Of a stretch of 64,000 nt of DNA, positions 8,879-64,000 are shown in pieces (within the stretch, counting starts at the first letter, position 1; each line of letters begins with the position of its first letter). The position numbers were made by a program, and so were the translations under genes. Where the stretch lies: the NCBI GenBank assembly GCA_037574385.1, contig GCA_037574385.1_4529.1. One strand, given 5' to 3'. A model generated the notes under the pieces. It made no database searches and was not told the DNA's origin. It was given only the letters and a program-made list of their open reading frames with translations. The stretch comes from a phage.

Positions 8879-9139
8879 TTATTCGGTCATATCAGAACGT
8901 TCAAAAAGCTCTTCAACAGTTAAACATTCGGTGTCATCCTCAATAAAGAATCGGGTCCAACACGTTGGGGCGATGCAGTTATGAGTTTGTCCAGCTATAG
9001 AAGCTACACGAATAAGCTGCTGACCATTATTCAGGACAAATTTTTCACCAATTTCAACATCTTTAAAAAGCTTAGCCATTTTGTATTCCTCATGTTTAAG
9101 TAGGACTACTATACCATAATCATACCGTGATGTAAACAA
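8879..9139 (-). CDS. hypothetical early protein (86 aa)
   Basis: ORF directly downstream of the promoter-hairpin; MAKLFKDVEIGEKF... Confidence 0.55.
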   Translation of the reverse strand: MFTSRYDYGIVVLLKHEEYKMAKLFKDVEIGEKFVLNNGQQLIRVASIAGQTHNCIAPTCWTRFFIEDDTECLTVEELFERSDMTE

Positions 9140-9329
9140 TTAAATTACATTAAAATATGTTAAAGCCAACCATGTTCCAGTGAACGAACATGCAATGTAA
9201 AAAACCGTATCACAAATTGTTTTTAGTACAATAAGAAGTGCATTTTTCATAAGTACCTCAATGCAATTGAAAATATTATACAAATCATAGGGATACTAAG
9301 CAACCATATTCCGATCCACATTTTAGAGC

Positions 9330-9593
9330 TCATATCTCAACTTCCGCGAGTTCCATATATCCTTTGCTGATAACCTCTTTAAGGTCTTTAGAAAGAATAA
9401 CATCAAAATGGTCGTTCATATGTCCATTAACCAGACGAGTTATTTCGGCTTCAGATGACATATAAGGCACGTCTGAGTCCCAATGAGATAGACCTAAATG
9501 GGTATAAATCATCCCTTCGTCGTCTGCGGTGTTGTACATTGAAACAAACTCACCTGTCACTTTATGTTTTGCGTAGAAAAATTTAAATTTCAT
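9330..9593 (-). CDS. hypothetical early protein (87 aa)
   Basis: ORF in operon orientation, preceded by a GGACTA...TAGTCC hairpin with embedded -10-like sequence (~9601-9640). Confidence 0.5.
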   Translation of the reverse strand: MKFKFFYAKHKVTGEFVSMYNTADDEGMIYTHLGLSHWDSDVPYMSSEAEITRLVNGHMNDHFDVILSKDLKEVISKGYMELAEVEI

Positions 9594-9661
9594 GATGTTA
9601 TCCTCTTTTAGATAGGACTACTGTATCATAGTCCTACTTAGTTGTAAACACTTTTATGAAA

Positions 9662-10282
9662 TTAAAGTTGAAGATACCACCCGTTGTAGTTGCTCTTGCG
9701 GACGATTTTCTTTAGGTCTTCATGGTCTCCCACGAACTTTATAGAATAAGAGAAGACGTCAGGTGAGGTTTCTTTGACATTCAATATAATAATACAGTCT
9801 GCAACTCGATGATTCAGGAATGGCCCTATGTTGATTCCGTTGCCACCCGGATAATCACCACTGTATCCTGTGGTAACAGAAATCCATTTAGAATCCATCT
9901 GATGTGTCTTGACTTCTACACGAATTCCACAATATTTAGGATGGGCTAACACGTCCCATGCATATGTGTACGGGTCTTCTACGTCTTCATTACCTTTATT
10001 AACATATCCGTCTAGCCAATTTGCTACTACATACTCTGCAAAGACTGCAACCTTACAACGTCGAACTACATCTTCTTTGTTTTGGTCTGGATTTTGGCTC
10101 AATGAATATCGAGCAGTGTCAGCAATCTTCACCTTCATTTCACTAGTCAAAAACTCATTCGACAGGATAAATGTCGGAAGATTCTTCAGTCTCAATAGTC
10201 CCAAGTTCGTCTTTACCATAGATACCTCTGATGTGTAGTTCGCCAAAATAAATGCGGTCTCCTTCTTCAAGATAGTTAGCAT
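9662..10282 (-). CDS. denB: endonuclease IV (DenB)-like protein; true start probably an internal Met giving ~185 aa
   Basis: Position between ndd region and rIIB as in T4; internal Met (MVKTNLGLLRLKN...) gives the T4 DenB length. Identity asserted from synteny and size, not verified. Confidence 0.55.
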   Translation of the reverse strand: MLTILKKETAFILANYTSEVSMVKTNLGLLRLKNLPTFILSNEFLTSEMKVKIADTARYSLSQNPDQNKEDVVRRCKVAVFAEYVVANWLDGYVNKGNEDVEDPYTYAWDVLAHPKYCGIRVEVKTHQMDSKWISVTTGYSGDYPGGNGINIGPFLNHRVADCIIILNVKETSPDVFSYSIKFVGDHEDLKKIVRKSNYNGWYLQL

Positions 10283-18859: not shown

Positions 18860-19279
18860 TTATGCGAAAGCAGCCGGGCTATATTTTTTAATTTGGAATT
18901 CAGGAACTACCATGAACTGACCAGCGAAAACGATGTTATAAAGCTTAACACCATCTTCTACCCAACGGTCGCTAATAAATCCGGCGATTTGCTTAGTTTT
19001 CCATGGCGTTCCATCGGTTGCCGCAGCAATAGTGAATTCGTGGTCTTTTTCAACAGAAACTGATCTGCATAGTCCCCATTTGAACGCTTTTTCTTCTGGT
19101 TCAATGAATTGGCTTGAGACGTAGCCAATGTTGCCATCAGCATCACGAACTTTAACTTGATGTGGACTAAAGAGTCCACAACTTACAGAAAGAACTTCAA
19201 CCAACTTCCCAGCAACTTTAGAGCGAGAAGCAACAGATACATATACGTAATCACCAATAGAGAGATTTGCAATATTCAT
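18860..19279 (-). CDS. hypothetical protein, member of a 3-gene tandem paralog family
   Basis: C-terminal region shares ...GFISD.WVEDG.KLYNIVF.G.F.VV... with the next two genes. Confidence 0.6.
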   Translation of the reverse strand: MNIANLSIGDYVYVSVASRSKVAGKLVEVLSVSCGLFSPHQVKVRDADGNIGYVSSQFIEPEEKAFKWGLCRSVSVEKDHEFTIAAATDGTPWKTKQIAGFISDRWVEDGVKLYNIVFAGQFMVVPEFQIKKYSPAAFA

Positions 19280-19288
19280 AATAATTCC

Positions 19289-19774
19289 TTAAGCTTTACG
19301 AGGAGACACATAACGAGTGATTTCGGATTCTTTAACAACTCTGAAGTCACCTAAGAATACGATATTGTATAACTTTTCACCATCTTCAACCCATTGGTCA
19401 CTAATGAAGCCACACATAGTATCAGTTTTGCTTGGATAACCGTATTCATCGATGAAGTCAAATTCTTTATCAGTCTGGAATTCAACGCCTTTGCAAAGGG
19501 CCCATTTGAACTGTACATTATGCTCTGTGGATTCAACTTTTTCTCTTGAAGCAAAAGCACTACTCACAGGCGTTTCCAAGAACTTTGCACGAACATAAGC
19601 AAATTTGGTTTCCTGTGTCCCAAAACTAGGAATAATACGAACCTTTACCTCAGAATCTTCATCTTTAACGCCTTCTTTAAGTTGAATACTTACAACTTCG
19701 ACCAATTTTCCTGCGGCTTTAGAACGAGATTTGTTAGATACGCGAACGATTTCACCAATAATACCAAGATTCAT
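19289..19774 (-). CDS. hypothetical protein, tandem paralog 2 (start moved to MNLGIIGEIV)
   Basis: Track N-terminus (MLYIQGWMEYNEF) is the translated promoter repeat; internal Met is the likely start. Shares the C-terminal motif. Confidence 0.6.
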   Translation of the reverse strand: MNLGIIGEIVRVSNKSRSKAAGKLVEVVSIQLKEGVKDEDSEVKVRIIPSFGTQETKFAYVRAKFLETPVSSAFASREKVESTEHNVQFKWALCKGVEFQTDKEFDFIDEYGYPSKTDTMCGFISDQWVEDGEKLYNIVFLGDFRVVKESEITRYVSPRKA

Positions 19775-19804
19775 AATTTCTCTCTCTTTGTTTAAATTGA
19801 ATTC

Positions 19805-19833
19805 ATTATACTCCATCCATCCTTGGATGTACA
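19805..19833 (-). promoter_or_regulatory. early promoter-hairpin repeat, copy with compensatory stem variant
   Basis: Minus strand TGTACA-[CATCC AAGGAT GGATG]-GAG-TATAAT; stem CATCC/GGATG where the other copies have CAACC/GGTTG. Confidence 0.55.
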
Positions 19834-19836
19834 ACA

Positions 19837-20331
19837 TTAATTAAGGATATTAACCACAGCACTACGTGGAACTACACTAAAATCACCTGCATGAACAACG
19901 TTCAGAAGTTCAACACCGTCTTCAATCCACTGGTCAGTTACCCATCCATTTACTGGACCTGCGAAAGGACGTCGAATTGAAACATATTTACACAGCAAAT
20001 CAGTAGGCTCAATAGGCTTAATCAGAGTACCGTACATACAAGCGATATCCATATCAATACAGATGTCTTTAACGGGTTCTACTTCTTCAATCAACAGTTC
20101 AAAGTCTGTGCTTGGAAGGGCGGTAGTGGAAATTGTACCATATGAATTTTTAATTTCTAAGAATAACCAAGGGCCTTCAGCTTGTTTGATGAAGTTAACA
20201 ATAGTGAAACTATTGCCTTGAGTGGCACCTAAAATTTCACAAAACTTTTCGTAAGCTCGCACTGAAGCACTGTACCAGTTGATTTGTTTTTCGTCTTTCA
20301 GGATGTAAGTAGCCGTAGTATTGATATTCAT
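19837..20331 (-). CDS. hypothetical protein, tandem paralog 3 (164 aa); positional candidate for MotB-like protein
   Basis: Shares C-terminal ...GWVTDQWIEDGVELLNVVHAGDFSVV... motif; T4 has motB in this neighbourhood; not verified. Confidence 0.55.
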   Translation of the reverse strand: MNINTTATYILKDEKQINWYSASVRAYEKFCEILGATQGNSFTIVNFIKQAEGPWLFLEIKNSYGTISTTALPSTDFELLIEEVEPVKDICIDMDIACMYGTLIKPIEPTDLLCKYVSIRRPFAGPVNGWVTDQWIEDGVELLNVVHAGDFSVVPRSAVVNILN

Positions 20332-20362
20332 AATGTTTTTCCTGTTTGGTTAAGATAGAAAG

Positions 20363-20392
20363 ATTATACTCCAACCATCCTTGGTTGTAAAC
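20363..20392 (-). promoter_or_regulatory. early promoter-hairpin repeat (TTATACTCCAACCATCCTTGGTTGTAAACTG)
   Basis: Minus strand has GTTTACA, ~17-18-nt spacer containing CAACC..GGTTG stem, TATAAT; ~30 nt upstream of the gene start. Confidence 0.55.
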
Positions 20393-59225: not shown

Positions 59226-59485
59226 TTAAAATATTCTCGCAGTTGGTCAAATCCACCAATGTGACTTCCGTCAGGAGCAAATACTTGAGGCATAGTCAAT
59301 CCAACTTGTGATTCACGTCCAAGCTTAACCAAAAGCTCAGTAATTTTCTCATCGTCGAACACACCTTTTTCCGGCATAACATTAATGAATTCGAACGGCT
59401 GTTTCTTAACAGTCAACAATCGTTTCGCATTATCACAATAAATGCATTTATGAATAGTAGAGTCATACCCGTACACTTTAAACAT
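59222..59485 (-). CDS. nrdC: glutaredoxin-like thioredoxin NrdC (start at MFKVYGY)
   Basis: MFKVYGYDS.IHKC.YCDNAKRLLTVKKQPFEFIN.MPEKGVFDDEKI.ELL.KLGR..Q.GLTMPQVFAPDGSHIGGFDQLREYFK matches T4 NrdC; track ORF begins 18 nt upstream (to 59503). Confidence 0.9.
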   Translation of the reverse strand: MFKVYGYDSTIHKCIYCDNAKRLLTVKKQPFEFINVMPEKGVFDDEKITELLVKLGRESQVGLTMPQVFAPDGSHIGGFDQLREYFK

Positions 59486-59891
59486 TATTTTTCCTTTCGT
59501 CAATTAAGCAATTAACACCCAATACAATACATGTAATAAAACCTGTGATACAGATAGAAACTAACAACACTGTACCAAAGAACCAAATCAGGTTATCTTT
59601 ACTATTTTGTTGAATATCCATCTCGCGAATTTCTATAGCTATCGTATCACCTTTATTCAGAAGCGTATAAAACGATGGTGATACATGCCTGTCAAAAACT
59701 CGTCCTTGCTCATCTTTATAGACTGCAATAAATTCTAATTTAGAATATTTTCCTGTAGATTGGCCTGAGATTAATTCCACTACCTCCACAGGAATTACTT
59801 TAGTTTCCATATAAGTATTCTGGCTGTTCCAAATGAATGGAATAATGGCAAAAACTAAAGCTGCAATAAAACAACGAAGACTATATCTCAT
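59478..59891 (-). CDS. membrane protein (137 aa, N- and C-terminal TM segments)
   Basis: Hydrophobic termini; operon orientation. Confidence 0.5.
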   Translation of the reverse strand: MRYSLRCFIAALVFAIIPFIWNSQNTYMETKVIPVEVVELISGQSTGKYSKLEFIAVYKDEQGRVFDRHVSPSFYTLLNKGDTIAIEIREMDIQQNSKDNLIWFFGTVLLVSICITGFITCIVLGVNCLIDERKNNV

Positions 59892-60196
59892 TATAATGTT
59901 CTCTCAAATTTGTGGAAGCATTTACGGCATTTCAATTTCAGGTTATCAGTGGTCCAGTTAACCAATTGAACCTGAATAGTTCCACATTCCGGACACGGAT
60001 GTTTTGCTGCCGATTTGGCAGCATTTTCACGTCGTTCAACCATTTTCATTATTTCGTTCCATGCCGGAGGAACGAACTCTTCTTTACCATGAATTTTATC
60101 TCGCTGAACAAATTCAATCTTTGAACTATCGTCAATAAACTTAACTAAGCTGTGATTAGTGTTCATATCAATATCCTCTAAAAGACGTAGTTTCAT
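59891..60196 (-). CDS. zinc-ribbon protein (101 aa)
   Basis: CPECG ... CRKC four-Cys pattern in C-terminal half. Confidence 0.5.
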   Translation of the reverse strand: MKLRLLEDIDMNTNHSLVKFIDDSSKIEFVQRDKIHGKEEFVPPAWNEIMKMVERRENAAKSAAKHPCPECGTIQVQLVNWTTDNLKLKCRKCFHKFERTL

Positions 60197-61146
60197 TATA
60201 ACACCTCAATGGCATTTCGTAAACCATCCGCTTTCGCATTCAGAGCTTTTAACGATTTAGTTTGTTCTTTAATCTGGGCTTCGACTTCTTTCAGACGAGA
60301 TTTGAGATATTCACGTTCTTCTCTTAAGTTATCAACTTTTTCTGCTTTAGGCTCTTTAATAGGCTTAGGCTTATACTCGTTAGGGTTCTTCAGTTTAATT
60401 TTAATTCGAGAACTGAATAACATTGAACCGTTATCTTCGGTTTCGTCGAACATTTCAACAACATCCATAGTCTGTAACATCATGCGAAGTTTATAAGACA
60501 GAGAACGAACGGTTTTATTGTGCTTCTTAATTTCTTCAGCTTTCATGGTACCGAGATTACGTGAGTAGTAATAAGGAACCTGGATATCAATTGATAACGA
60601 CGCGGTGCCATTACCAGTTGGTTTGAATACTGCAGTAACCCAATCTTTAACATGAACTTTATTTGTACGATCATCGCCGCCTGTGAATAATTTACATGAA
60701 TGTTTAAAAAGCATATTCACTTGGTTATTGAATTCACAAGCAAATTTATCAGCAAATTTAGTTTCAGGAATGGTAGATAACCAATCAGCCAAATGAGTCT
60801 TTTTAACATCATTAACAATAGTGAATTCAACCAAATCGGTTTTAGATGTCACAGATTTAATAAAGCTCGGCTTCATAAAGTTTTTAATGTTATCGCGAGC
60901 TACAGTAGAAGATAATAAACGAGAACGTTTGAACCATTGAAGCAGTGTCCCTAATGAATGAGAATACGCATTCTGAGTATCTTTACAGATATGATTTTCT
61001 TGGCCTGTGTATGTACCAAAATCGCGAAGAATACCACTTACTACATCTCGGTGTGGAACATCAAATCCTAGTGCACCAGTAGCGCGCTGAGCATGAACGT
61101 TAGCGATAAGACCGGCAAAGTATTCAATGTAATGTGAACGTGTCAT
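60196..61146 (-). CDS. hypothetical protein with C-terminal coiled coil (316 aa)
   Basis: Globular N-domain plus heptad-like C-terminus (LREEREYLKSRLKEVEAQIKEQTKSLKALNAKADGL); own promoter repeat upstream. Confidence 0.6.
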   Translation of the reverse strand: MTRSHYIEYFAGLIANVHAQRATGALGFDVPHRDVVSGILRDFGTYTGQENHICKDTQNAYSHSLGTLLQWFKRSRLLSSTVARDNIKNFMKPSFIKSVTSKTDLVEFTIVNDVKKTHLADWLSTIPETKFADKFACEFNNQVNMLFKHSCKLFTGGDDRTNKVHVKDWVTAVFKPTGNGTASLSIDIQVPYYYSRNLGTMKAEEIKKHNKTVRSLSYKLRMMLQTMDVVEMFDETEDNGSMLFSSRIKIKLKNPNEYKPKPIKEPKAEKVDNLREEREYLKSRLKEVEAQIKEQTKSLKALNAKADGLRNAIEVL

Positions 61147-61174
61147 AATATTTTCCTCTCGTTAAGATAGATTC

Positions 61175-61203
61175 ATTATACTCCAACCATCCTTGGTTGT
61201 AAA
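61175..61203 (-). promoter_or_regulatory. early promoter-hairpin repeat
   Basis: Identical to the 20363-20392 copy (ATTATACTCCAACCATCCTTGGTTGTAAA). Confidence 0.55.
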
Positions 61204-61208
61204 CTGAT

Positions 61209-62165
61209 TTATGATTTTAATGCATTCATTGCGTTAAAAAGTTTAGAGTACTGCAACTGGAGATTGGTCACCACCTGTTGAGCATCACGAAGCTTAGCTT
61301 GTGCCTTATCAAGTTCAACAGACAGTTGGTCTACAGTAGCCTTGATTTGATTGTAATGATAATCTTCAGCCGGAAGAAGGTCATTAGAAACATTTAGTTT
61401 TGCTGCCGACAGTTTGCACACATTTGGCAAACCTTTAAACATACCAGATTGTGCTGGAGAATATGCGCCTAGAACCTCTGCATTACCGACTGGTGTTGAT
61501 GTAATATTGCCTTCGAACGTTGCATTTTCCTTTTTAAGATTTTTATAATATTCAGAGTCTTTGTGCCACCATGGTGCAGGAACCTTTTTACCAATAGATA
61601 CACGAGCCTGGATAGCGATATGGCCCTTATTCTTGATAGGGTCGATAATATTAAGCTCACGAGAATAAATTGCTTTAATCTGGTGGATATTATCACCTAA
61701 AACTTCCAACGCTTGGTGGAATACACGAGCAACGTTATCATTCTTAGGTTTATACGTAAGAGTGAACTCGTTCTCACTGATAACCATGGTTTCTAACTTA
61801 TCGTAAGTATATTTCAAATGCTTCATGTTAATTGCTTGAGGACGAATACGAGAAGCAATGGCCATCAGATTGTTAAGGTTATTTCTGAACTGTTTAGCAA
61901 AATATTGTCCATAACCGCCAATACAAAAATTACGAAGTTTCTGTTTGGCCAGTAAACGACTGAACTCACCGTTTTTAATGAACTCTTTAACGGGTGTGTT
62001 AGTAACACATTCAAATTGAGTAAACTTACGAGAAGTAATCCCATAATATGAACAGATTTCCTCAATCTCTTCAGGAGTCTTTACAGGCATACGGATAGGA
62101 TTAGGTCCTGGAGTATATGCGTTCGAGGTAAATTCTTTGATAAGTTCTCTACGTGTAATAGCCAT
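61209..62165 (-). CDS. hypothetical protein with C-terminal coiled coil (start moved to MAITRREL)
   Basis: Track N-terminus (MMYNQGWLEYNNF) is translated promoter repeat; C-terminal LSVELDKAQAKLRDAQQVVTNLQLQYSKL coiled coil. Confidence 0.6.
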   Translation of the reverse strand: MAITRRELIKEFTSNAYTPGPNPIRMPVKTPEEIEEICSYYGITSRKFTQFECVTNTPVKEFIKNGEFSRLLAKQKLRNFCIGGYGQYFAKQFRNNLNNLMAIASRIRPQAINMKHLKYTYDKLETMVISENEFTLTYKPKNDNVARVFHQALEVLGDNIHQIKAIYSRELNIIDPIKNKGHIAIQARVSIGKKVPAPWWHKDSEYYKNLKKENATFEGNITSTPVGNAEVLGAYSPAQSGMFKGLPNVCKLSAAKLNVSNDLLPAEDYHYNQIKATVDQLSVELDKAQAKLRDAQQVVTNLQLQYSKLFNAMNALKS

Positions 62166-62192
62166 TTTATATTCCTCATGTTGAAAAAAATT

Positions 62193-62222
62193 ATTATACT
62201 CCAACCATCCTTGGTTGTACAT
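62193..62222 (-). promoter_or_regulatory. early promoter-hairpin repeat
   Basis: ATTATACTCCAACCATCCTTGGTTGTACA; same element with -35 variant. Confidence 0.55.
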
Positions 62223-63217
62223 CATTCCTTAAGAAGTTTTACTACCTGAATAAGATTAGCTCGTTCTGTTTTATTTTTACCGTTCAGTCCGGCCAATCGC
62301 GAGATTTCATCGTCAGTTTGTTGAATAGTTACATTAAGTTCATTAATCAAAGCTTCAAAGTATTTGATTTGCTCAGCATGTTTTGATTCAAATTTCTGAA
62401 CCGGAATAACGTCTTGGTTCAGTTCATCAATAAGGTCTTTAAGAGCATCTTCTTGGTTGATATCATATTCAACTTCTTTTATTTCTTCAACGAGCTCGTC
62501 TTTATATCTAACGTCTTTTAGTCCTGGTGCTGGTCCTGAAATCTCTTCTTTAAGAGTACAAACATATCCAATACGGTATCCAGTTCCGTCTCGCTTGATA
62601 TCAACTTCGTCGATAAATCCACAATGTTTAAGTCCAGAGCCGATTATGTCAAAATATCCTTGACGTCGTCCTTCAAACGTTACACGAACTACTAAGACAG
62701 TTTTGCCACCAACCTTTTGAAGCTCACATTTATAAAAGTCTGTTGAACCTGAATAACGTGGATGAGTTTTAAAGTTCATCTGACGATCTAAGCCCATTTG
62801 TAAACGTGCTGTTACGGCCATAAAACGTGTTTGGTTCTCGTTAAGATGAGCAACGATCCATTTCAAAGGCATTTTACACTGTTCACGTCCGAACAAATCA
62901 GTACGTCCTAGATTACGCAGGATGTTGTTAGAGTTAATCATCGACAGAACGTTAAGTTTATTCAGCGCGCTGAAGATTCCATCAGCCATTGATTTTCCAT
63001 AACCTTTACACGCTTTAATAAGTGCTCGCGGCAGATTAGCATAGATTTCGGACGGCATATGAAAATCAAATTTACTAGTCAGTAATTGATGAACTTGGAT
63101 AGCAATTTGCTCATAATTAAGTGCTCTGCGATCGTTATGGTCTTTAAACCACACTTTAATCTGTGAAGCACATAAACCGTTAATTTCATGTTTTACCGCA
63201 TCAGATGTAATGCTCAT
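62222..63217 (-). CDS. hypothetical protein with long C-terminal coiled coil (331 aa)
   Basis: C-terminal ~100 aa highly charged heptad-like; preceded by variant promoter-hairpin (ATTATAACCCGTCCTTGGGTAAA). Confidence 0.6.
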   Translation of the reverse strand: MSITSDAVKHEINGLCASQIKVWFKDHNDRRALNYEQIAIQVHQLLTSKFDFHMPSEIYANLPRALIKACKGYGKSMADGIFSALNKLNVLSMINSNNILRNLGRTDLFGREQCKMPLKWIVAHLNENQTRFMAVTARLQMGLDRQMNFKTHPRYSGSTDFYKCELQKVGGKTVLVVRVTFEGRRQGYFDIIGSGLKHCGFIDEVDIKRDGTGYRIGYVCTLKEEISGPAPGLKDVRYKDELVEEIKEVEYDINQEDALKDLIDELNQDVIPVQKFESKHAEQIKYFEALINELNVTIQQTDDEISRLAGLNGKNKTERANLIQVVKLLKE

Positions 63218-63279
63218 AACTATTTCCTCAGATTGAATTGGAACTCAAAACCATTATAACCCGTCCTTGGGTAAAGCGT

Positions 63280-63807
63280 TTATGCGTGAACCGTCTTTAA
63301 ACGTTCTTCAAATTTCCGAAGAGTACTAATACGTTCTGATTTCTGTTTTGTGTAGTTTGCAATACGTTCTGAAGTGAGAGCGTATCGTTCGTTTACTGTT
63401 TCTTTCATGAAGTCAGGGATTTCACGAGAAGCTTTAATTTCATCAAACTTATCGATTACTGCCTGGTCTTCAGCGATTAAATTTTCGTACATCTCGATAT
63501 CTTTCTTGATAAACTCGATATCTTCCTGGGTTACTTTGGATAAACGAGATGCTTTATCCTTTTTGTACTGCTCGTTAGTTTCACGAGACCAGAATAATGT
63601 ACGTTTTTTATTAGTGTTTTTGTAGACTTCCACAATTCCAACCGAATCGATGATAACAATCCAATTCCAGCGAGATTTGAAAATCTGACCTCCGTCCACG
63701 GTAATCTCGTTACCATAAGCAACGTCATTAAAGAACTTGCTTTGTGCTTCAGATTTAAATTTACCGTCGTTATAATTTACCAGGTTGAAAATATCTTTAG
63801 CGTTCAT
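63280..63807 (-). CDS. hypothetical coiled-coil protein (175 aa)
   Basis: Charged helical C-terminal half; preceded by promoter/hairpin region 63811-63850. Confidence 0.55.
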   Translation of the reverse strand: MNAKDIFNLVNYNDGKFKSEAQSKFFNDVAYGNEITVDGGQIFKSRWNWIVIIDSVGIVEVYKNTNKKRTLFWSRETNEQYKKDKASRLSKVTQEDIEFIKKDIEMYENLIAEDQAVIDKFDEIKASREIPDFMKETVNERYALTSERIANYTKQKSERISTLRKFEERLKTVHA

Positions 63808-64000
63808 GTTTTACCTCCAGTAGTTGATAGGTCTATAATAACATAACCATAGACCTTGTAAACAACTAAAAGAAACTTTTTTCGGTATTTTTTCCACTGA
63901 ACCAAACAGACTTCGGGATTTTTTGTAATTTTTCAGATTTAAGTTTCTCTTCCTGTTCTTTCTTATATACACCCTTGTCGTACTGGAGCATCTCTATGGC

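What the first reader, a model, noticed from the sequence alone, without database searches (positions are those of the whole stretch)
60196..63807. Tandem array of four early genes encoding globular-N / coiled-coil-C proteins, each with its own promoter cassette
Four consecutive ORFs (316, ~318, 331, 175 aa) in the nrdC-distal hyperplastic region have dissimilar N-terminal domains but all end in long charged heptad-like helices. Each is preceded by its own copy or variant of the promoter-hairpin repeat. Independent strong early expression of modular coiled-coil proteins is the kind of pattern seen for host-takeover or anti-defence factors; function is unknown.
Basis: inference. Interest (0 to 1): 0.5.

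Follow-up and report, generated by a model that had tools for sequence, protein, structure and literature searches.

The report
T-even phage NrdC.3/5/6 anti-defence paralogs
The four genes are this RB69-like phage's copies of T4 genes nrdC.8, nrdC.6, nrdC.5 and nrdC.3; at least two, probably three, are diverged copies of one fast-evolving protein family whose only studied member (T4 NrdC.5) disarms the bacterial Dsr1 immune protein.

Summary
Four minus-strand ORFs of 175, 331, 318 and 316 aa each have a promoter-like site just upstream. The window is a Mosigvirus (RB69-like T-even phage), 96-97% identical to many GenBank phages. The genes are homologues of T4 nrdC.8, nrdC.6, nrdC.5 (Pfam DUF7235) and nrdC.3.

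Three points need correcting:
- The N-terminal domains are not unrelated. Profile-profile alignment joins NrdC.3/NrdC.4 to NrdC.5 over about 250 columns (P 5e-8). The link survives removal of the C-terminal helix (P 9e-7). NrdC.6 is a probable member (P 0.003). NrdC.8 is unrelated and much more conserved.
- Only the three ~320-aa proteins show a significant C-terminal heptad signal, over about 45 residues.
- The promoter-hairpin cassettes are the known PeSL elements. One of the four (nrdC.6) is a MotA-type middle promoter, not an early one.

The anti-defence guess has published support. T4 NrdC.5 restores infection on Dsr1-carrying E. coli (Srikant 2022), and Dsr1 senses the major capsid protein (Nature 2026).

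These are known genes. The paralogy is a modest new insight.

The parts
63280..63807 (-). ORF4, 175 aa, NrdC.8 homologue. It is conserved and unrelated to the other three proteins.
   Evidence: 83% identical to T4 NrdC.8. phrog_2274, E 5e-106. Found in 746 phage records at mostly 80-99% identity. No heptad signal. hhalign against the other families gives P > 0.17.
63829..63862 (-). Early promoter TTTACA-16-TATTAT upstream of ORF4. An 11-bp hairpin spans the spacer and the -10 element (PeSL-like).
   Evidence: Scan. Hairpin energy -13.4 kcal/mol, z -4.0. The relative SA79RD has an overlapping terminator and early promoter annotated here. The -35 element and flanks are conserved in T4-type phages.
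62222..63217 (-). ORF3, 331 aa, NrdC.6 homologue. Probable member of the paralogue family.
   Evidence: 30-33% identical to Tequatrovirus NrdC.6. phrog_2257, E 4e-127. Precomputed Pfam PF26899. hhalign of the merged NrdC.3/4/5 profile against NrdC.6: global P 0.0029, 0 of 60 column shuffles reach it; local P 0.019.
63253..63277 (-). MotA-box middle-type promoter (GCTT-N15-TATAAT) upstream of ORF3. It carries a degenerate copy of the CCAAGGA(C/T)GG core.
   Evidence: Sequence. The same element is annotated as a middle promoter in SA79RD. Identical in four Mosigvirus loci. The hairpin is not significant.
61209..62165 (-). ORF2, 318 aa, NrdC.5-family protein (Pfam DUF7235). Candidate Dsr1 inhibitor.
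   Evidence: PF23882: 391.5 bits against a cut-off of 30. T4 NrdC.5 scores 420.6 bits on the same model. 24% identical to T4 NrdC.5 over 304 aa. Same position in the gene order. Function of the T4 protein: PMC9391042.
62193..62221 (-). PeSL cassette upstream of ORF2: TGTACA-17-TATAAT. The spacer holds the hairpin CAACCA-AGGA-TGGTTG.
60196..61146 (-). ORF1, 316 aa, NrdC.3 homologue. Paralogue of NrdC.4 and NrdC.5.
   Evidence: 56% identical to T4 NrdC.3. phrog_1435, which also holds T4 NrdC.4. The NrdC.3 profile finds a NrdC.4 homologue at E 3e-6 among 1.84 billion proteins. hhalign of NrdC.3/4 against NrdC.5: P 4.7e-8 over 254 columns. AlphaFold model: pLDDT 71.4.
61175..61203 (-). PeSL cassette upstream of ORF1: TTTACA-17-TATAAT with the same hairpin. 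It is an exact 27-nt repeat of the cassette at 62193-62219.
60202..60327 (-). C-terminal coiled-coil-like helix of ORF1 (aa 274-315).
   Evidence: Helix with pLDDT 74-85. Heptad score maximum at aa 279-306, reached by 0 of 300 shuffles.
61215..61373 (-). C-terminal coiled-coil-like helix of ORF2 (aa 265-317).
   Evidence: Helix in the otherwise poor model. Heptad score maximum at aa 274-301, reached by 0 of 300 shuffles.
62228..62401 (-). C-terminal heptad-like region of ORF3 (aa 273-330).
   Evidence: Heptad score maximum at aa 281-308, reached by 1 of 300 shuffles. Conserved in the 295-aa Tequatrovirus NrdC.6 proteins.

Best explanation
The region is the Mosigvirus version of the T4 nrdC.8-nrdC.6-nrdC.5-nrdC.3 block. 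These are accessory prereplicative genes, each behind its own PeSL-type cassette.

Transcription (inferred from consensus matches and the PeSL literature). Host sigma-70 RNA polymerase would transcribe ORF4, ORF2 and ORF1 from T4-type early promoters straight after infection. ORF3 would follow from a MotA-dependent middle promoter. The hairpins would attenuate read-through and supply short homologies for recombination.

Proteins.
- ORF1 and ORF2 belong, with T4 NrdC.4, to one fast-diverging paralogous family. This is shown by profile comparison.
- ORF3 is probably a member as well. This is inferred from weaker statistics.
- The ORF1 model has an N-terminal helical bundle, an alpha/beta domain, a disordered variable linker and a ~45-residue C-terminal coiled coil.

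Function (inferred). The coiled coil makes the protein an oligomer. The rapidly evolving globular part binds a host immune protein. This extends one experiment: T4 NrdC.5 neutralises the SIR2 NADase Dsr1. Dsr1 fires when its sensor binds the late-made major capsid protein. An early-made NrdC.5-type protein therefore most likely occupies or locks Dsr1 before capsid protein appears. This would resemble DSAD1 blocking DSR2.
- ORF2 would do this for Dsr1 or a Dsr1 variant met by Mosigviruses.
- ORF1 and ORF3 would target other sensors or sensor variants.
- ORF4 (NrdC.8) is a separate, conserved early protein whose role I cannot assign.
For: Identity:
- The window is 96-97% identical to Mosigvirus genomes.
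- Family assignments.

Paralogy:
- NrdC.3 against NrdC.4: hhalign P 4e-6 over 234 columns.
- The NrdC.3 profile retrieves a NrdC.4 homologue at E 2.9e-6 in a library of 1.84 billion proteins.
- NrdC.3/4 against NrdC.5: global score 43.2, probability 93%, P 4.7e-8, z 17 against column shuffles.
- With the last 60 residues removed, the score is still 36.2, P 8.8e-7, and 0 of 40 shuffles reach it.
- Shared collinear motifs are visible in alignment A6: M-x-TR-xx-I-xx-F, SRLLS-x6-L-x-NF and the C-terminal L-xx-A-xxx-L.
- phrog_26858 matches NrdC.4 across most of its length and matches the NrdC.5 and ORF2 C-termini.
- The merged alignment raised AlphaFold confidence to pLDDT 71 and pTM 0.64. ORF2 with its own family alone gave pLDDT 39.
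- NrdC.6: P 0.003, 0 of 60 shuffles reach it.

Fast evolution (identity, window against T4):
- Paralogue family: NrdC.5 24.6%, NrdC.6 30%, NrdC.3 56%.
- Neighbours: NrdC 91%, gp49 88.5%, NrdD 99%.

Function:
- PMC9391042: nrdC.5 rescues a deletion phage on cells carrying Dsr1.
- PMC13581612: the Dsr1 sensor recognises the major capsid protein.
- DSAD1/DSR2 is the precedent for a sensor-blocking phage protein.
- No enzymatic or structural-protein domain was found.

Promoters. PeSL papers: PMC2839356 and PMC4122927.
Against: - Only one family member, from a different phage and 24% identical to ORF2, has any functional data. That paper reports no binding or mechanism.
- The paralogy statistics rest on shallow alignments (Neff 1.5-2.7). 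Local hhalign scores between families are weak.
- The NrdC.6 link is only suggestive.
- No heptad predictor with calibrated statistics was available. Oligomerisation is inferred.
- Promoter calls are consensus matches. The generic scan finds no more sites than shuffles do (25 against 20.9 +/- 5.1). No transcript data for this phage were examined.
- In T4, nrdC.5 and nrdC.6 have no promoter of their own. One promoter per gene is therefore not a family property.
Confidence: 0.55

Rival explanations
1. The proteins are host-takeover factors. They would bind and redirect host housekeeping machinery such as RNA polymerase, the nucleoid, proteases or the division apparatus, rather than immune proteins. 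The Dsr1 effect of T4 NrdC.5 would then be indirect, for example through slower NAD+ loss or altered timing.
Against: The genes are lost without cost on laboratory hosts, and the nrdC.5 phenotype is specific to a Dsr1-carrying host. Extreme divergence between closely related phages (24-30% against about 90% for neighbours) fits a variable immune target better than conserved host machinery. The genes are confined to T-even coliphages: only 5 representatives among 1.84 billion proteins.
Confidence: 0.2
2. The alpha/beta domain mimics a virion protein fold (tail-terminator-like). The proteins would be early-made decoys for pattern-recognition sensors such as Avs or Dsr that detect conserved structural proteins.
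Confidence: 0.12
3. The ORFs are largely passenger cargo of mobile PeSL cassettes. They would be kept by recombination and hitch-hiking rather than by selection for a function in the phage.
For: PeSL-flanked ORFans are shuffled, deleted and even circularised (PMC2839356). Gene content differs between T4 and this phage: nrdC.4 is absent here and nrdC.7 has moved. T4's own nrdC.6 is frameshifted. A NrdC.4 gene is split in one locus, L006.
Against: Intact full-length ORFs are present in 650-750 sequenced phages. Conserved motifs and architecture persist across 24% identity. One member has a demonstrated fitness role.
Confidence: 0.08

Closest known systems
T4 NrdC.5 (Pfam DUF7235 / PF23882, phrog_2351), the anti-Dsr1 protein of Srikant, Guegler and Laub 2022
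   Same: ORF2 matches the same Pfam model end to end: 391 bits, against 421 bits for T4 NrdC.5. It has the same length class. It has the same position between nrdC.6 and nrdC.3/4. It has the same C-terminal helix ending in KL-x-NA-x-NAL.
   Different: Only 24% identical to T4 NrdC.5. tblastn with ORF2 finds Mosigviruses only (133 records). ORF2 has its own PeSL promoter, whereas T4 nrdC.5 has none. Activity against Dsr1 is untested for the Mosigvirus type.
T4 NrdC.3 / NrdC.4 (phrog_1435) and NrdC.6 (phrog_2257), uncharacterised T-even early ORFs
   Same: ORF1 is the NrdC.3 orthologue (56% identical). ORF3 is the NrdC.6 orthologue (30-33% identical). The architecture is shared with NrdC.5.
   Different: The databases keep these as separate families. 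Here NrdC.3, NrdC.4 and NrdC.5 are joined statistically and NrdC.6 tentatively. This phage lacks nrdC.4.
PeSL cassettes (promoter-early stem-loops; Arbiol 2010, Comeau 2014)
   Same: They are repeated sigma-70-like early promoters of the T4/PST type (TTTACW-N17-TAYWAT) joined to a stem-loop. They lie in hyperplastic regions in front of non-core ORFs. A middle-promoter variant (PmSL) is also described.
   Different: Here the small stem-loop lies inside the promoter spacer rather than beside it, and it has no T-run. The stems differ between copies while staying complementary, around a constant AGGA loop (AACCA/TGGTT, ATCCA/TGGAT, CCACA/TGTGG, AGCCA/TGGCT).
DSAD1, the SPbeta inhibitor of the SIR2 defence protein DSR2
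   Same: It is a phage protein that neutralises a SIR2 NADase whose sensor recognises a late virion protein. I propose it as the working analogy.
   Different: No sequence or fold relationship was tested or claimed. The host, the target (DSR2 sensing the tail tube) and the protein size all differ. The NrdC.5 mechanism is unknown.

Membership tests
Pfam DUF7235 / T4 NrdC.5 family | Whole-protein score above the Pfam gathering threshold for PF23882 | tested here: met
   ORF2 scores 391.5 bits against a cut-off of 30, covering profile positions 1-307. T4 NrdC.5 scores 420.6 bits. ORF1, ORF3 and ORF4 do not match.
Pfam DUF7235 / T4 NrdC.5 family | Same position in the gene order as T4 nrdC.5 (between nrdC.6 and nrdC.4/nrdC.3) | tested here: met
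   Gene order in the window compared with the T4 record.
Pfam DUF7235 / T4 NrdC.5 family | Counteracts Dsr1 (the family's only known activity) | not testable with these tools
   Known for T4 NrdC.5 only (PMC9391042). ORF2 is 24% identical to it.
NrdC.3/NrdC.4 family (phrog_1435; Pfam PF26897 in the precomputed table) | Significant full-length profile match | tested here: met
   ORF1: E 4.6e-104 over 1-316. T4 NrdC.3 (E 5.5e-101) and NrdC.4 (E 5.6e-168) hit the same model.
Proposed NrdC.3/4/5(/6) superfamily | Statistically supported, collinear, full-length profile-profile alignment that includes the N-terminal domain | tested here: met
   NrdC.3/4 against NrdC.5: P 4.7e-8 over 254 columns. N-domain alone: P 8.8e-7 over 204 columns, reached by 0 of 40 shuffles.
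Proposed NrdC.3/4/5(/6) superfamily | The same test applied to NrdC.6 (ORF3) | tested here: inconclusive
   Merged profile against NrdC.6: global P 0.0029 (0 of 60 shuffles reach it), local P 0.019 (1 of 60). Pairwise family tests give P 0.006-0.23.
Proposed NrdC.3/4/5(/6) superfamily | The same test applied to NrdC.8 (ORF4) | tested here: not met
   P 0.17-0.74, no better than shuffles.
Coiled-coil proteins | Heptad periodicity of hydrophobic residues beyond what composition gives, in a predicted long helix | tested here: met
   ORF1, ORF2 and ORF3: 0-1 of 300 shuffles reach the observed score. Helices at 274-315 and 265-317. ORF4 fails: 35 of 300 shuffles reach it. The score is home-made, not COILS or DeepCoil.
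PeSL cassettes | T4-type early promoter (TTTACW-N17-TAYWAT) joined to a stem-loop, repeated in hyperplastic regions | tested here: met
   ORF1 and ORF2 cassettes are identical. Four copies in the window against 0 expected. Hairpin energies are -6.9 to -13.4 kcal/mol. The definition is taken from PMC4122927.
PeSL cassettes | The stem-loop acts as a terminator or attenuator, and the cassettes mediate recombination | not testable with these tools
   The small hairpins have no T-run. The loss of nrdC.4 and the move of nrdC.7 relative to T4 are consistent with recombination but do not prove it.
Thioredoxin (label carried by many GenBank records for these ORFs) | Thioredoxin-fold domain match | tested here: not met
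   No thioredoxin family appears in the Pfam or NCBIfam scans. The label is propagated from the nrdC.x locus names.

The most novel reading that the evidence does not exclude
NrdC.3, NrdC.4, NrdC.5 and NrdC.6 form a multigene family of coiled-coil oligomers. Their alpha/beta domain imitates a virion-protein fold (tail-terminator-like). Made before any late protein, each paralogue pre-emptively plugs a different bacterial pattern-recognition sensor, such as Dsr1, Avs7-type or other Avs sensors. The family diversifies by PeSL-mediated duplication and shuffling. It would be a phage decoy repertoire that mirrors the host's sensor repertoire.
Probability: 0.1. Interest if true: 0.8.

Novelty: new member of a known kind. 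Interest (0 to 1): 0.4.

Why it matters
T-even phages are the main model for phage-host conflict, yet most genes in their hyperplastic regions have no assigned function. If the anti-Dsr1 protein NrdC.5 is one member of a paralogous family, then NrdC.3, NrdC.4 and NrdC.6 become specific candidates for new anti-defence proteins. Between them these genes occur in about 650-750 sequenced phages. That gives a testable hypothesis: each paralogue disarms a different sensor or sensor variant. It would also be an example of counter-defence repertoires growing by tandem duplication between mobile promoter cassettes. For annotation, the analysis corrects the widespread 'thioredoxin' label on these genes and the wrong 338-aa start.

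Tried and rejected
- Pairwise BLASTP among the four proteins found nothing significant.
- Default local hhalign on small alignments gave E 0.014-0.19, uninformative on its own.
- Sequence searches of the PDB with three family profiles and ORF4 gave no hit below E 0.29.
- PADLOC and NCBIfam gave only chance-level coiled-coil hits.
- AlphaFold of ORF2 with its own shallow family gave pLDDT 39, unusable apart from the terminal helix.
- Foldseek of the ORF1 model against the PDB found nothing significant.
- Attempts to deepen the alignments failed because the families are confined to T-even phages. IMG/VR gave only 7 loci. The NrdC.3 profile found only 5 representatives among 1.84 billion proteins. 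The word-indexed searches found 33, 19 and 4 clusters.
- HMM searches of all 96 window ORFs of 80 aa or more found no further paralogues.
- I considered and rejected an enzymatic route such as NAD+ regeneration, because no catalytic domain was found.
- I considered and rejected a structural-virion role, because the promoters are early or middle and the genes are dispensable in T4.

Full report
**What is there.** The window is a Mosigvirus, an RB69-like T-even coliphage. The stretch 59800-64000 is 96-97% identical at the DNA level to more than a hundred GenBank phages. The annotated relative SA79RD has the same gene order.

All genes of the finding lie on the minus strand:
- ORF4: 63280-63807, 175 aa.
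- ORF3: 62222-63217, 331 aa.
- ORF2: 61209-62165, 318 aa.
- ORF1: 60196-61146, 316 aa.

Downstream come a NrdC.2-like zinc-ribbon ORF, a NrdC.7-like membrane ORF and nrdC itself.

The longest ORF at the ORF2 position starts at 62225 (338 aa). That extension is the translated promoter cassette, and a 1-nt indel puts it out of frame in three relatives.

**Identity of the genes.** BLAST against the T4 proteins gave:
- ORF1 = NrdC.3, 56% identical.
- ORF2 = NrdC.5, 24% identical over 304 residues.
- ORF3 = NrdC.6, 30-33% identical.
- ORF4 = NrdC.8, 83% identical.

Profile libraries agree:
- ORF2 and T4 NrdC.5 both match Pfam DUF7235 end to end, at 391 and 421 bits against a cut-off of 30.
- ORF1, T4 NrdC.3 and T4 NrdC.4 all fall in phrog_1435.
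- ORF3 and T4 NrdC.6 fall in phrog_2257.
- ORF4 falls in phrog_2274.

This phage has no nrdC.4, and its nrdC.7 has moved.

The families are narrow:
- The word-indexed search of 5.8 billion protein clusters found only 33, 19 and 4 clusters, all T-even-like.
- An exhaustive HMM search of 1.84 billion representatives with the NrdC.3 profile found 5.
- No relative has a solved structure.

**Coiled coils.** No calibrated predictor was available, so I used a simple heptad-register score with whole-sequence shuffles.
- In ORF1, ORF2 and ORF3 the protein-wide maximum lies in the last ~45 residues. Between 0 and 1 of 300 shuffles reach it.
- AlphaFold places single long helices at ORF1 274-315 and ORF2 265-317.
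- ORF4 does not pass: 35 of 300 shuffles reach its maximum.

The claim therefore holds for three proteins of the four, and the helices are moderate in length rather than long.

**Are the N-terminal domains really dissimilar?**
- Pairwise BLAST says yes. By eye, however, the proteins share collinear motifs.
- I built family alignments from the window, from seven IMG/VR loci, from T4 and from database hits, and compared them with hhalign.
- NrdC.3 against NrdC.4 gives P 4e-6 over 234 columns.
- Independently, the NrdC.3 profile retrieves a protein 43% identical to T4 NrdC.4 at E 2.9e-6 in the 1.84-billion library.
- The merged NrdC.3/4 profile aligns globally with the NrdC.5 family. The score is 43.2, probability 93%, P 4.7e-8 over 254 columns, and z 17 against column-shuffled controls.
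- After removing the last 60 residues from every sequence, to exclude coiled-coil similarity, the score is still 36.2, P 8.8e-7 over 204 columns, and 0 of 40 shuffles reach it.
- Alignment A6 shows the shared residues, including the N-terminal M-x-TR-xx-I-xx-F.
- ORF1 and ORF2 are therefore diverged paralogues.
- For NrdC.6 the evidence is suggestive only. The merged NrdC.3/4/5 profile against NrdC.6 gives global P 0.0029 (0 of 60 shuffles reach it) and local P 0.019.
- NrdC.8 shows no relationship (P > 0.17).
- No further paralogue exists in the 64-kb window.

**Structure.**
- ORF2 with its own shallow family gave an unusable model, pLDDT 39.
- ORF1 with the merged NrdC.3 + NrdC.4-like + NrdC.5 alignment gave pLDDT 71.4 and pTM 0.64.
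- The ORF1 model has a five-helix N-terminal bundle (3-88). It has an alpha/beta domain with six strands and two long helices (93-252). A low-confidence linker (253-273) and the terminal helix follow.
- The linker is also where Mosigvirus ORF2 and ORF3 sequences carry insertions and deletions.
- Foldseek against BFVD finds NrdC.3 itself. It then finds uncharacterised 318-374-aa proteins of Acinetobacter, Serratia and Erwinia T4-like phages at E 3e-6 to 6e-5. The fold may therefore be wider in Straboviridae than the sequence families suggest.

**Promoter cassettes.** Each gene has a promoter-like site in the short gap upstream.
- ORF1 and ORF2 share an exact 27-nt cassette.
- A search with its 26-nt core (ACAACCAAGGATGGTTGGAGTATAAT) finds four copies in the window against 0 expected.
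- The promoter spacer of this cassette forms the hairpin CAACCA-AGGA-TGGTTG.
- The fourth copy (19805) and the T4 nrdC.4 and nrdC.3 cassettes keep the AGGA loop. Their stems differ (ATCCA/TGGAT, CCACA/TGTGG, AGCCA/TGGCT) while staying complementary, which points to selection on the hairpin.
- ORF4 has a different early promoter inside a stronger hairpin (-13.4 kcal/mol).
- ORF3 has a MotA-box middle promoter, annotated as such in SA79RD.
- These elements are the promoter-early stem-loops (PeSLs and PmSLs) of Arbiol 2010 and Comeau 2014. Those papers describe them as terminator/promoter units that mediate modular shuffling in hyperplastic regions.
- In T4, nrdC.5 and nrdC.6 have no promoter of their own.

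**Function.**
- The only experimental datum is from Srikant, Guegler and Laub 2022 (PMC9391042).
- A T4 clone with a compensatory deletion could not infect ECOR17. Disrupting dsr1 restored infection.
- Cloned dsr1 protected MG1655 against that clone. Expressing the early gene nrdC.5 restored plating.
- Dsr1 is a SIR2 NADase. A 2026 Nature paper shows that its sensor, shared with Avs7, recognises the major capsid protein.
- An early protein that disarms a sensor of a late protein most plausibly binds it beforehand. DSAD1 does this to DSR2.
- The paralogue family evolves far faster than its neighbours. Identity to T4 is 24.6% for NrdC.5, 30% for NrdC.6 and 56% for NrdC.3. It is 91% for NrdC, 88.5% for gp49 and 99% for NrdD. 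This fits an arms race.
- I therefore read ORF1 to ORF3 as an array of oligomeric anti-defence proteins with diversified specificity. ORF2 is the candidate Dsr1 inhibitor. ORF4 is a separate conserved early protein.
- Direct binding, oligomerisation and the targets of ORF1 and ORF3 are all inferences.

**Novelty.** The genes, the cassettes and the anti-Dsr1 activity of the T4 homologue are all known. What this analysis adds is the statistical link that makes NrdC.3, NrdC.4, NrdC.5 and probably NrdC.6 one family, and a first architecture for it. That is useful for choosing candidates, but it is not a new kind of system.

Noticed in passing
window 18860-20388, minus strand: A second array of paralogues flanked by PeSL cassettes. 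Three ORFs (19837-20331, 19289-19837 and 18860-19279) share a C-terminal motif, GF(I/V)(S/T)D-x-W(V/I)EDG..L-x-N(I/V)V. They lie downstream of dexA-like and dda-like genes. Two of them are preceded by the same 26-nt cassette as ORF1 and ORF2. The copy at 20363-20388 is exact. The copy at 19805-19830 has a compensatory stem change.
   Followed up: partly
window 62166-62225 and 19775-19837: The longest ORFs at both sites begin M(M/L)Y(N/I)QGW(L/M)EYN-x-F. This is simply the translated PeSL cassette, so it is a recurring false N-terminal extension. In relatives a 1-nt indel puts the stretch at 62166-62225 out of frame.
   Followed up: yes
L002 (T4 NC_000866) 9067-9894: The T4 reference nrdC.6 (275 aa) is frameshifted within its C-terminal helix. 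Other Tequatroviruses encode 295 aa ending ...EREKLIKIVDLLKS. The DNA for that tail is still present upstream of T4 nrdC.5.
   Followed up: partly
window 60196-63807, and many GenBank relatives: Many GenBank records label all the nrdC.x ORFs 'thioredoxin'. None has a thioredoxin domain. The label is propagated from the locus name.
   Followed up: yes
window 60195-60223, minus strand: A sigma-70-like promoter (TTTACG-17-TATAAT with an extended TG) lies inside the 3' end of ORF1. It sits just before the NrdC.2-like ORF, whose ATG overlaps the ORF1 stop codon. It is annotated as an early promoter in SA79RD.
   Followed up: no
window 59478-59891: The NrdC.7-like membrane protein (40% identical to T4 NrdC.7) lies between nrdC.2 and nrdC here. 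In T4 it lies between nrdC.8 and nrdC.6. This is a local rearrangement next to PeSL cassettes.
   Followed up: no
window 61175-61203 and 62193-62221; L002 upstream of nrdC.3 and nrdC.4: The PeSL hairpin loop AGGA is invariant while the stems covary. In the window cassettes and the T4 nrdC.3 cassette (not the T4 nrdC.4 one) a GGAG lies at the 3' edge of the stem. GGAG is the RegB endoribonuclease motif, so read-through transcripts might be processed there. RegB moderately cleaves the nrdC.8 Shine-Dalgarno sequence in T4 (PMC1702504).
   Followed up: no
L006 4909-5994: In one IMG/VR Tequatrovirus contig the nrdC.4 gene is split into ORFs of 193 and 158 aa. It is an apparent pseudogene, consistent with turnover of these paralogues.
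   Followed up: no
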